A stretch of DNA of 64,000 nt, from the NCBI RefSeq assembly GCF_009914755.1, contig NC_060944.1. The stretch is one strand, 5' to 3'. Below are positions 22,736 to 24,410 of the stretch, one piece after another. How positions within the stretch are numbered: position 1 is the stretch's first letter; every line of letters begins with the position of its first letter. Both the position numbers and the translations under genes were made by a program. The stretch comes from the human T2T-CHM13v2.0 reference genome, Homo sapiens. The notes beneath the pieces were generated by a model. That model was not told where the DNA came from and searched no databases. It worked only from the letters and a program-made list of their open reading frames with translations.

Positions 22736-23106
22736 CTGATGAAAGAAAAAGAAATAATTTAAATTAAAATGATGACAACTGGGCAAAGAAATTCTTAAAA
22801 CCCTTTGACTTAATTAAGCTTCCAACCTGAGAGTCATACAGGAGCAGTCTGGATCATCCACCACCGAAAATTCTAACAATTCCCATGATTACAGGAACAA
22901 TCACGCATCAATGAATAACACTAGGATCTATTCATCTAAAAGTAGGCATGTTAGTGACTACATCTTTAGCTGGCCACACTGCTCTGAGATATATAAGGTA
23001 CTTCAGTAAAACATCCATTTAAATATCCATTTAACCCAATGTAGATATGATAATTTTTAACCAAGTCAAAAATCTACCCATTTTCAAGGATCAGGAGAAG
23101 ACTTAC

Positions 23107-23156
23107 TTGTAAAAATATACTTCCCACTTTCTCCAATTCGCTGCTCCCAGATGTCA
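23107..23156 (-). CDS. COMMD7: COMMD7 exon 7 (V-TSGSSELEKVGSIFLQ)
   Basis: (CT)n/T polypyrimidine tract then gtcacag|TG; donor CAA|gtaagt; 50 nt. Confidence 0.95.
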
Positions 23157-23479
23157 CTGTGACAAAAAAAAAAAAAAGAGAGAGAGAGAGAGAAATAACA
23201 AGTGACTGATTGAGGACTGACCCTGAAGACCCCAGTTTTGCAGCTGTCCAGCAGAAGCCATGTGGGGGCAAGTATGAGGGCAGCAAGGTGTGCTTTTGGA
23301 AAGTCAACTTATCCAGAGCCATGAAACAGCTACTGAATGTGGACAGAATACAAAACAGCAGCTGCTGCCCCAACAGTGCTAGGGACTAGGTCATGCCTTC
23401 CCCATAGTGGCTGTGTCACAGCCTCTGCACCCCAACCCTGTACCACCCAAATAACCCAGGACTGGTTGTAACTAGTTAC

Positions 23480-23570
23480 CTCCAAATTTCCACTCCATAT
23501 CTATGAGCTGGTTAATCATCAGAGTCTGACCTATGGCCCATCGAGCAAGGGTGGGAGCATTCTGCTTCCA
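23480..23570 (-). CDS. COMMD7: COMMD7 exon 6 (WKQNAPTLARWAIGQTLMINQLIDMEWKFG-V; start of COMM domain)
   Basis: Acceptor ttgttccag|TGG; donor G|gtaact; 91 nt; contains the COMM-domain L-x-D-x-x-W motif. Confidence 0.95.
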
Positions 23571-23823
23571 CTGGAACAAAAGCAAAAGACAAAGTCAATT
23601 ACAATAGGAAAATCTCCCCCTCTCCATCCTGCCCTAAACATTGCAATATTTAGCATTGACACAGATAGTGGGGAGGGTGCAGAAGATAGTGGGGAGGGTG
23701 CAGAACGAAGGGCTCAGTCTATATGCACATACCTAGGGATGGAGGAGGGCACAGAGTGGCAGACCACAACATTAATGTTGTATTTTTCATTCCAAGATTT
23801 AATCCATCTTGGAAAAAAAACAG

Positions 23824-24410
23824 TGCTGCCATCATACTGGCCCCCACATGGCTTCTACTAGACAATTGCAAGATGGGGTCTTCAGGGTAAGTTCTCAATC
23901 AGTCACTTGTTATTTTTCTCTATTTTTGTCACAGTGACATCTGAGAGCAGTGAATTGGAGAAAGGAGGCATATATATGTGTATATATATACATACATATA
24001 TATGTATATATATATGTGTGTGTGTGTATATATATATATATATTTTTTTTTTCTTTGAGATGGAGTCTCGCTCTGTTGCCCAGGCTAGAGTGCAGTGGCA
24101 TGATCTTGGCTCGCTGCAAGCTCCACCTCCTGGGTTCACGCCACTCTCCTGCCTCAGCCTCCCAAGTAGCTGGGACCACAGGCGCCCACCACCATGCCCA
24201 GCTAATTTTTTATATTTTTAGTAGAGATGGGGTTTCACCATGTTAGGCAGGATGATCTCGATCTCCTGACCTCGTGATCCGCCCGCCTTGGCCTCCCAAA
24301 GTGTTGGGATTACAGGCGTGAGCCACCGGGCCTGGCCAGTAGGAGGTATATTTTTACAAGTAAGTCCTCTCCTGATCCATGAAAATGGGCAGATTTTTGA
24401 CTGGGTCAAA
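23824..24410 (+). repeat. Inverted duplicate of COMMD7 exon 7 and flanking intron sequence (source about 23058-23285), interrupted by an AluY-like element and a (TA)n tract
   Basis: + strand tttgtcacagTGACATCTGAGAGCAGTGAATTGGAGAAAG...[Alu]...GTAGGAGGTATATTTTTACAAgtaagtcctctcctgatcc matches the minus-strand exon 7 region. Confidence 0.93.

What the first reader, a model, noticed from the sequence alone, without database searches (positions are those of the whole stretch)
23058..24410. Inverted copy of COMMD7 exon 7 in intron 5: a possible built-in antisense clamp over exons 6-7
Seen: 23824-23963 and 24338-24410 (+) are the reverse complement of about 23058-23285, roughly 85% identical by eye. 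The copy covers exon 7, its branch/polypyrimidine region, its AG acceptor and its GTAAGT donor. It lies in intron 5, so exon 6 (23480-23570) sits in the roughly 540-nt loop between the arms. The copy was later split inside the exon by an AluY-like insertion (TSD AGGAGG[C/T]ATAT, with TA expansion). Also seen: exon 6 (91) + exon 7 (50) = 141 nt, phase 0 to 0, so skipping both is in frame and removes aa 113-159, including the start of the COMM domain; skipping either alone frameshifts. Inference: pre-mRNA folding could mask both exon 7 splice sites and loop out exon 6, giving a delta47 isoform, NMD isoforms, ADAR editing inside coding exon 7, or exon 6 back-splicing. The inserted Alu could also pair with the opposite-strand Alus at 24581-25200 as a competing structure.
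Basis: partly seen in the sequence, partly recalled or inferred. Interest (0 to 1): 0.8.

Follow-up and report, generated by a model that had tools for sequence, protein, structure and literature searches.

The report
Inverted exon-7 copy inside COMMD7 intron
A roughly 240-base stretch holding COMMD7 exon 7 and its splice sites was copied backwards into the intron two exons upstream in a primate ancestor, so the pre-mRNA can fold on itself there, but nothing yet shows that this changes splicing or editing.

Summary
23056-23296 (start of intron 7, exon 7, end of intron 6) is the reverse complement of 23813/23824-23964 plus 24338-24410 in intron 5. 202 of 225 aligned columns are identical. The only other genome matches are five low-complexity hits. 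It is the only local inverted pair in the window that is not a multi-copy repeat.

The copy is split by a minus-strand Alu with an 11-nt target-site duplication. The reading-frame arithmetic is right.

In silico the arms pair strongly (-228.8 and -109.9 kcal/mol, against -58 and -29 for shuffles). When the neighbouring antisense Alus are included, Alu-Alu pairing wins. Only the proximal half then pairs, covering the intron 6 end, the acceptor and the first 28 nt of exon 7. The exon 7 donor is left uncovered.

Mismatch types show no selection for pairing. COMMD7 is absent from one recoding catalogue and one long-range-structure catalogue. No paper found links COMMD7 to exon skipping, circRNA or editing.

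Most likely this is a tolerated relic of an anthropoid-age duplication that can form double-stranded RNA. A regulatory role is possible but unshown.

The parts
23056..23296 (-). Original arm: first 51 nt of intron 7 (23056-23106), exon 7 (23107-23156), last 140 nt of intron 6 (23157-23296) with the polypyrimidine tract and the AG acceptor
   Evidence: for the repeat. The annotation given with the finding and for the exon limits and splice sites (TTGTCACAG| and |GTAAGTCT).
23107..23156 (-). COMMD7 exon 7 (50 nt, aa 143-159)
   Evidence: the assembled coding sequence of 603 nt translates without an internal stop. Exon 7 starts at phase 1 and ends at a codon boundary.
23480..23570 (-). COMMD7 exon 6 (91 nt, aa 113-143), inside the 516-nt spacer between the arms
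23813..23964 (+). Proximal half of the inverted copy (antisense in the pre-mRNA). It is the copy of the intron 6 end, the acceptor and roughly the first 30 nt of exon 7. It lies in intron 5, 243 nt upstream of exon 6 in the transcript.
   Evidence: I5-I7; 136 of 152 aligned columns identical; the exon 7 5' part and the intron 6 arm pair with this half with probability 0.96 and 0.72.
23963..23973 (.). Left target-site duplication of the Alu insertion (AGGAGGCATAT)
   Evidence: read directly. It differs at one position from 24341-24351.
23970..24042 (.). TA/TG microsatellite next to the Alu A-tail
   Evidence: family D2.
24043..24337 (-). Alu inserted into the exon 7 copy, sense on the gene strand. 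It belongs to the younger Alu group of the window.
   Evidence: It carries 8 of 8 derived states shared with the most CpG-rich Alus. 8 of 236 non-CpG columns (3.4%) differ from that group's consensus. It retains 10 CpGs.
24338..24410 (+). Distal half of the inverted copy: right target-site duplication (24341-24351), the last ~20 nt of exon 7, the GTAAGT donor (24360-24365) and 51 nt of intron 7
   Evidence: I3; 66 of 73 identical; probability 0.00 of pairing with the original arm once the Alus are included.
24592..25180 (+). Two Alus that are antisense in the pre-mRNA (24592-24866 and 24908-25180). They compete for the inserted Alu.
   Evidence: I1: 231 nt, 84%; I2: 143 nt, 83%; 263 pairs between 24900-25208 and 24043-24337 in the minimum-energy fold. 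for the Alu coordinates.

Best explanation
This is a fixed, single-locus inverted duplication. About 240 bp of COMMD7, made up of the end of intron 6, exon 7 and the start of intron 7, was copied in reverse orientation into intron 5. The mechanism was probably a fold-back or template-switch event during replication or repair (inferred). The copy then decayed and was split by an Alu insertion.

The arms differ at about 10% of aligned sites, roughly 5% per arm. That exceeds the 3.4% non-CpG divergence of the inserted Alu from its group consensus, which fits the order 'duplication first, Alu later'. With recalled primate substitution rates this suggests an anthropoid age of tens of millions of years. 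The date is inferred, not shown.

In the pre-mRNA the copy is antisense and is transcribed before its target. Its proximal half is predicted to pair with the end of intron 6, the acceptor and the first 28 nt of exon 7, looping out exon 6. Its distal half is predicted to be shut inside an Alu-Alu hairpin.

The most likely reading is a tolerated, selectively neutral relic. The duplex probably forms transiently in the nucleus. There it would be opened by helicases and perhaps edited by ADAR in unspliced RNA, with little or no effect on the mature mRNA.
For: **The duplication is real and unique.**
- (E = 1.6e-35 and 3.0e-19; no copies elsewhere in the genome apart from five low-complexity hits).
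- 2 of 289 local inverted pairs are not multi-copy, and both belong to this copy.

**Order of events.**
- The Alu carries a target-site duplication inside the exon copy.
- Alu non-CpG divergence is 8 of 236 columns. The arms differ at 23 of 225 columns or 25 of 223.

**Pairing ability.**
- The minimum-energy fold of 1386 nt pairs both halves with the exon 7 region.
- Duplex energies are -228.8 and -109.9 kcal/mol. 200 shuffles each gave -58.1 +/- 6.0 and -29.3 +/- 3.9.
- In 2261 nt the proximal half still pairs, with probability 0.72 over the intron 6 arm and 0.96 over the exon 7 5' part.

**Neutrality.**
- Of 15 transition mismatches, 9 keep a G-U pair and 6 give A-C. That is no excess over an even split. 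A further 10 mismatches are transversions.
- The copy has lost the exon's coding state (GGG to GAG, CpG decay) and has been split by an Alu without being repaired.
- COMMD7 is absent from the readable supplements of a GTEx recoding catalogue (PMC8897444) and of a conserved long-range pairing catalogue (PMC8052449).
- 0 papers pair COMMD7 with 'exon skipping'. By title and abstract, none of the 4, 10 and 17 papers concerns COMMD7 isoforms, circRNA or editing.

**Strong exon 7 signals.** Exon 7 has a GTAAGT donor and a long pyrimidine tract. 17 nt of that tract are an unpaired bulge in the duplex.
Against: - No expression, editing or cross-species data could be examined, so neutrality rests on the absence of contrary evidence.
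- The duplex is unusually long and stable for one that covers a constitutive coding exon's acceptor. The flanking geometry around exon 6 (arms 243 nt upstream and 184 nt downstream) is the kind reported to favour looping-out or back-splicing.
- The 17-nt longer pyrimidine tract of the working exon could be compensation for the duplex rather than slippage.
- With only 25 mismatches, the test for selection on pairing has little power.
- The recoding catalogue excludes sites near homopolymers and uses strict filters, and one of its files was stored cut.
- The folding model forbids pseudoknots, so pairing of the distal half is excluded by the method. Physics does not exclude it.
Confidence: 0.62

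Rival explanations
1. The inverted copy is a working cis-regulator of splicing. By pairing with the exon 7 acceptor region and looping out exon 6, it lowers inclusion of exon 6, exon 7 or both. That would yield NMD targets (single skips) or the in-frame 153-aa delta47 form, and so tune COMMD7 output in primates.
For: - Strong predicted duplex over the acceptor, the pyrimidine tract and the 5' part of exon 7.
- Exon 6 lies in the 516-nt loop.
- Skipping both exons stays in frame, and a single skip gives an early stop.
- Established knowledge (recalled, plus the reference Nasim et al. 2002 seen in the reference list): duplex-forming inverted repeats can repress or loop out splice sites.
Against: - No junction data were available.
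- 0 papers pair COMMD7 with exon skipping.
- The donor side of the proposed clamp is lost once the Alus are included.
- Mismatch types show no sign of selection for pairing.
- Exon 7's splice signals are strong.
- The annotation given with the finding lists no alternative exon forms at exons 6 and 7, although skipped forms would not show in that table.
Confidence: 0.15
2. The copy acts as an editing complementary sequence. ADAR edits adenosines of exon 7 in the exon-intron duplex, recoding COMMD7. The best single candidate is the A at window 23121, the first base of the Ser155 codon AGT, which faces a C in the duplex.
For: - A duplex of about 130 bp (proximal half) or about 200 bp (both halves) at about 90% complementarity.
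- An A-C mismatch at 23121 inside exon 7.
- The preference of ADAR for long duplexes and A-C mismatches is recalled knowledge.
Against: - COMMD7 has 0 occurrences in the 3 readable supplementary files of the GTEx recoding catalogue PMC8897444. One of those files was stored cut.
- The A at 23121 lies in the half of exon 7 that pairs with the distal half of the copy. That half is predicted to be locked away by the Alu-Alu helix.
- Editing of intron 6 in unspliced RNA may well occur, but it would not recode the protein.
Confidence: 0.1
3. The arms act as flanking complementary sequences that drive back-splicing. The product would be an exon 6 circle (91 nt), through the intron 5 / intron 6 pairing, or an exon 6-7 circle (141 nt), through the intron 5 / intron 7 pairing.
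For: - Complementary arms lie 243 nt upstream and 184 nt downstream of exon 6.
- The 51-nt intron 7 part of the arm has a partner at 24360-24410.
Against: - By title and abstract, none of the 10 papers holding both COMMD7 and circRNA concerns a COMMD7 circle. The one opened mentions COMMD7 only as a miRNA target.
- Circles this small are uncommon (recalled).
- The intron 7 partner is predicted to be sequestered.
- No circRNA database could be consulted.
Confidence: 0.08
4. The similarity is chance, an assembly artefact, or two members of a dispersed repeat family.
For: None found.
Against: - E = 1.6e-35 and 3.0e-19, with no other copies in the 3.1-Gb assembly apart from low-complexity matches.
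- The collinear halves together reconstruct a complete exon with both splice sites.
- The self-hit depth within the window is 1.
Confidence: 0.01

Closest known systems
Inverted Alu pairs and other intronic complementary sequences that flank exons (exon looping-out, alternative splicing, circRNA formation)
   Same: Two reverse-complementary segments in the introns on either side of an exon (here exon 6), within a few hundred nt of it. They are predicted to form a long duplex in the pre-mRNA.
   Different: The arms are a unique local duplication rather than a dispersed repeat. One arm contains a coding exon with both its splice sites. No skipped or circular product has been seen for this gene.
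Exon-intron duplexes with an editing complementary sequence, the ADAR recoding substrates such as the GRIA2 Q/R site (recalled)
   Same: An intronic segment complementary to a coding exon of the same transcript, at short range.
   Different: - Here the complementary segment lies upstream, is far longer (about 130-200 bp) and arose by copying the exon itself.
- No editing is documented.
- Classic substrates are conserved and short, whereas this one looks young and decaying.
Hairpin loci born by inverted duplication of a target gene segment, proposed as the origin of plant microRNA genes, and mouse oocyte endo-siRNA hairpins (recalled)
   Same: An inverted duplication of gene sequence creates a long fold-back RNA complementary to that gene's exon.
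   Different: Here both arms lie within the same pre-mRNA, and the copy is intronic and removed by splicing. No small RNAs are known. Rfam gave 0 matches in 22600-25400.
Conserved long-range complementary regions in human pre-mRNAs (PCCR catalogue, PMC8052449)
   Same: Long-range intramolecular pairing near splice sites.
   Different: That catalogue requires evolutionary conservation. COMMD7 does not occur in its 3 readable supplementary files. This structure is much longer than typical entries and probably primate-specific (inferred).

Membership tests
Local inverted (fold-back type) duplication | Two segments that are reverse complements far beyond chance | tested here: met
   202 of 225 aligned columns identical. 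E = 1.6e-35 and 3.0e-19.
Local inverted (fold-back type) duplication | Confined to one locus, not a dispersed repeat family | tested here: met
   of 8 genome matches, 3 are the locus itself and 5 cover only the A/GA-rich tract; median self-hit depth 1 in the window.
Local inverted (fold-back type) duplication | Junction signatures of the mechanism (microhomology or short palindromes at the breakpoints) | tested here: inconclusive
   a short palindrome (ccaagat...atcttgg, about 23793-23813) abuts the inner end of the copy. The inner boundary is ragged, with 5 mismatches in 23286-23293. Too much decay has occurred to assign a mechanism.
Exon-flanking complementary sequences (looping-out / back-splicing) | Complementary segments in the introns on both sides of an exon | tested here: met
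   23813-23930 in intron 5 against 23157-23296 in intron 6, around exon 6.
Exon-flanking complementary sequences (looping-out / back-splicing) | An observed skipped or circular product that depends on the pairing | not testable with these tools
   No RNA-seq or circRNA database is available. The literature searches found nothing on COMMD7 products.
ADAR editing complementary sequence | Intronic sequence predicted to pair with a coding exon | tested here: met
   exon 7 positions 23129-23156 pair with 23813-23964 with mean probability 0.96.
ADAR editing complementary sequence | Documented A-to-I editing in the exon | tested here: inconclusive
   0 occurrences of COMMD7 in 3 supplementary files of PMC8897444. 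One file was stored cut. That pipeline has strict filters. No editing database could be queried.
Conserved functional long-range RNA structure | Compensatory or pairing-preserving substitutions | tested here: not met
   among 15 transitions, 9 are G-U compatible and 6 give A-C. There are also 10 transversions. This compares only the two arms within one genome, and no cross-species alignment was possible.
AluY subfamily (the inserted element) | Full-length dimeric Alu with an A-tail and a target-site duplication | tested here: met
   285-nt body, T-run at 24043-24052 on the + strand, 11-nt duplication with one mismatch.
AluY subfamily (the inserted element) | Subfamily diagnostic positions | tested here: inconclusive
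   it shares 8 of 8 derived states with 4 of the 5 most CpG-rich Alus of the window, and 13 of 82 window Alus fall in that group. No reference subfamily consensus was used, so the name AluY is not confirmed.

The most novel reading that the evidence does not exclude
A primate-specific inverted copy of a coding exon works as a built-in antisense element of its own gene. While the pre-mRNA is being made, the copy pairs with the exon 7 acceptor region and loops out exon 6, diverting a share of COMMD7 transcripts to NMD isoforms, a delta47 protein or small circles. The Alu that later landed in the copy acts as a switch: by pairing with neighbouring antisense Alus it frees the exon 7 donor. The 17-nt expansion of exon 7's pyrimidine tract would then be a compensatory response.
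Probability: 0.1. Interest if true: 0.75.

Novelty: new member of a known kind. Interest (0 to 1): 0.35.

Why it matters
COMMD7 is a subunit of the Commander (CCC) endosomal recycling complex (recalled), so a lineage-specific brake on its productive splicing would be of interest.

More generally, this is a clean natural case of a long duplex, unrelated to any repeat family, that covers a constitutive coding exon's acceptor. It also has an internal competitor in the Alu-Alu helix. That makes it a convenient test of how cells tolerate or use exon-containing double-stranded RNA.

The copy is also a dated snapshot of the ancestral exon 7 region, for example its shorter pyrimidine tract.

If it is neutral, as seems most likely, it is an ordinary relic of a small rearrangement.

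Tried and rejected
- **Dispersed repeat or transposon.** Rejected by the genome search and the window self-BLAST.
- **Known RNA family.** Rfam gave 0 matches in 22600-25400.
- **Two-sided clamp.** It holds only when the Alus are left out. With 2261 nt of context the distal half does not pair. The model cannot form pseudoknots, so this is a limit of the method as well as a result.
- **First Alu subfamily test.** Asking where the three most CpG-rich Alus agree gave 0 columns, because one of the three belongs to another group. The group test replaced it.
- **Literature.**
  - COMMD7 with 'RNA editing': 4 papers.
  - COMMD7 with 'circRNA': 10 papers.
  - COMMD7 with 'exon skipping': 0 papers.
  - COMMD7 with 'alternative splicing': 17 papers, 14 listed.
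  - 'Inverted duplication' + exon + 'editing complementary sequence': 0 papers.
  - Six phrasings of 'inverted copy/duplication of exon': 5 papers, 4 listed, all on pathogenic or structural variants by title.
  - I saw only listings for these, except for passages of PMC12932978, PMC10087627, PMC8897444 and PMC10691357. None bears on COMMD7 isoforms.
These are catalogues of non-conserved and RIC-seq-supported long-range structures and could list this duplex.
Whether the delta47 deletion removes the start of the COMM domain is therefore untested here and rests on recall.
- **Dating across species.** Not possible, because no mammalian genomes other than this assembly are held.
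Full report
**1. The observation**

The stretch 22950-24650 was read directly and scanned for repeats. Four collinear inverted pairs join 23056-23296 to 23813-23964 and 24338-24410:
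- I3: 73 nt, 90% complementary
- I7: 51 nt, 90%
- I6: 57 nt, 88%
- I5: 66 nt, 79%

A gapped alignment gave two blocks.
- 23285-23115 against 23824-23975: 136 matches, 16 mismatches and 19 gap bases. 17 of the gap bases form one gap in the pyrimidine tract.
- 23128-23056 against 24338-24410: 66 matches, 7 mismatches and no gaps.

Together 202 of 225 aligned columns are identical, or 202 of 244 with gaps counted.

A search of the window's own 3.1-Gb assembly with 23056-23296 found the locus itself, the two inverted halves (E = 1.6e-35 and 3.0e-19) and five further matches. All five are confined to the A/GA-rich tract. In a self-BLAST of the window, 289 local inverted pairs of 50 nt or more lie within 3 kb of each other. 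287 of them are multi-copy repeats, and the remaining 2 are the halves of this copy. The duplication is therefore real, far beyond chance, and belongs to no repeat family.

**2. Anatomy**

COMMD7 lies on the minus strand.
- The original arm holds the last 140 nt of intron 6 with the pyrimidine tract and AG, exon 7 (23107-23156), the GTAAGT donor and 51 nt of intron 7.
- The copy lies in intron 5 in the opposite orientation. Read on the + strand, it keeps an AG acceptor (23933-23934) and a GTAAGT donor (24360-24365).
- The spacer between the arms is 516 nt and contains exon 6 (23480-23570).

The copy is interrupted within the exon by an Alu.
- The Alu's sense strand is the gene strand (24043-24337, with a T-run at 24043-24052 on the + strand).
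- A TA/TG microsatellite lies next to it (23970-24042).
- It is bounded by AGGAGGCATAT (23963-23973) and AGGAGGTATAT (24341-24351).

Assembling the annotated coding parts gives a 603-nt frame without internal stops.
- Exon 6 begins at phase 0 (aa 113) and exon 7 ends at aa 159.
- Skipping both exons stays in frame (153 aa).
- Skipping exon 6 alone gives a stop immediately after the junction. Skipping exon 7 alone gives a stop six codons after it.

**3. Age and order of events**

82 Alu copies of the window that cover at least 260 of the 285 query bases were aligned.
- The inserted Alu carries 8 of 8 derived states shared by 4 of the 5 most CpG-rich copies.
- 13 of the 82 copies form that group.
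- The inserted Alu differs from the group's consensus at 8 of 236 non-CpG columns (3.4%) and at 31% of CpG columns.

The arms differ at 23 of 225 columns or 25 of 223, about 5% per arm. That is more than the Alu's 3.4%, as expected if the duplication came first. With recalled primate substitution rates this points to tens of millions of years, within the anthropoids. The estimate is rough and inferred, because no other mammalian genome could be searched. 'AluY-like' is plausible but unproven, since no reference consensus was used.

**4. Predicted RNA structure**

*Alus left out.* The minus-strand RNA of 23040-24425 (1386 nt) has a minimum-energy fold of -642.6 kcal/mol. Both halves of the copy pair with the exon 7 region, and the Alu forms an internal domain. 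Duplex energies were:

| Half of the copy | Duplex energy (kcal/mol) | 200 shuffles (mean +/- SD) |
|---|---|---|
| Proximal | -228.8 | -58.1 +/- 6.0 |
| Distal | -109.9 | -29.3 +/- 3.9 |

*Alus included.* When the transcript is extended to exon 5 (23040-25300, 2261 nt) the picture changes.
- The inserted Alu pairs with the distal antisense Alu: 263 pairs in the minimum-energy fold, probability 0.89.
- The proximal half still pairs, with probability 0.72 over the intron 6 arm and 0.96 over exon 7 positions 23129-23156.
- Coverage is 0.56 over the acceptor and pyrimidine tract, where the 17-nt bulge is unpaired.
- The distal half has probability 0.00 of pairing with the 3' part of exon 7 or the donor.

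Pairing of the distal half would be a pseudoknot, which the algorithm cannot form. This result is therefore partly a limit of the method.

*Order of synthesis.* In the nascent RNA made before the original arm exists (25300-23300), the Alu-Alu helix is already formed, with a paired fraction of 0.90. The proximal half is only loosely engaged, with a paired fraction of 0.61 and scattered partners. Since the copy is transcribed first, the predicted sequence is: Alu hairpin first, then the proximal duplex as soon as intron 6 and exon 7 emerge.

**5. Evidence on function**

Nothing here measures RNA. The indirect evidence is as follows.
- The 25 mismatches between the arms comprise 15 transitions, of which 9 keep a G-U pair and 6 give A-C, and 10 transversions. 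There is no excess of pairing-preserving changes, although the power is low.
- One A-C mismatch falls on an exonic A (23121, first base of the Ser155 codon). That makes a specific editing prediction, but the site lies in the half predicted to be sequestered.
- COMMD7 does not occur in the three readable supplementary files of the GTEx recoding catalogue (PMC8897444). One file was stored cut, and the filters are described.
- COMMD7 also does not occur in the three readable supplementary files of the conserved long-range pairing catalogue (PMC8052449).
The main text of the first does not mention COMMD7.
- Literature searches pairing COMMD7 with RNA editing, circRNA, exon skipping and alternative splicing gave 4, 10, 0 and 17 papers. 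By title and abstract, none concerns isoforms, circles or editing of this gene. The two opened did not either.
- Rfam has no match in 22600-25400.

**6. Interpretation**

The best-supported reading is a small local inverted duplication that became fixed and has been decaying since. It was hit by an Alu, its coding state was lost, and its inner boundary is ragged. It retains enough complementarity to form a long duplex in the pre-mRNA.

The strong donor and the long, partly bulged pyrimidine tract of exon 7 make it plausible that the duplex is tolerated. So do the competing Alu helix and nuclear helicase and ADAR activity (recalled).

The functional readings (splicing brake, recoding substrate, circle formation) are not excluded and are cheap to test with public data. 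I put them together at roughly one in three for any measurable effect, and about one in ten for a selected regulatory role.

**7. Comparison with known systems and novelty**

The locus works like exon-flanking inverted repeats (Alu pairs and other complementary sequences) and like exon-intron editing duplexes. It differs in three ways:
- The arm is a copy of the exon itself.
- The duplex is very long.
- An internal Alu provides a competing helix.

Two phrase searches for fixed inverted copies of exons forming pre-mRNA hairpins found nothing comparable. The full-text library is incomplete, so this is weak evidence of novelty.

I file it as a new member of a known kind, namely long-range complementary sequences in pre-mRNA that arose by local inverted duplication. 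Interest is moderate to low until RNA data show an effect.

Noticed in passing
window 23663-23704: A perfect tandem duplication of a 21-nt unit (AGATAGTGGGGAGGGTGCAGA, two copies) in intron 5, inside the loop between the arms (family D7). It looks recent, since the two copies are identical.
   Followed up: no
window 23157-23200 against 23914-23934: The pyrimidine tract in front of the working exon 7, a (CT)n run followed by a run of 14 T on the gene strand, is 17 nt longer than in the inverted copy. Either the working tract expanded after the duplication or the copy contracted. In the duplex this stretch is an unpaired bulge.
   Followed up: partly
window 24043-24337 with 24592-24866 and 24908-25180: Intron 5 holds an inverted Alu arrangement, one sense and two antisense Alus within about 1.1 kb. 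It is predicted to form a helix of about 260 bp and is a likely site of intronic A-to-I editing regardless of the exon copy.
   Followed up: partly
whole window: Alu density is very high. 82 copies cover at least 260 of 285 query bases in 64 kb, and most are on the + strand, so they are antisense to COMMD7.
   Followed up: no
window 23793-23813: A short palindrome (ccaagat...atcttgg) directly abuts the inner end of the inverted copy. It may be a remnant of the fold-back or template-switch site, but that is not testable after this much decay.
   Followed up: no
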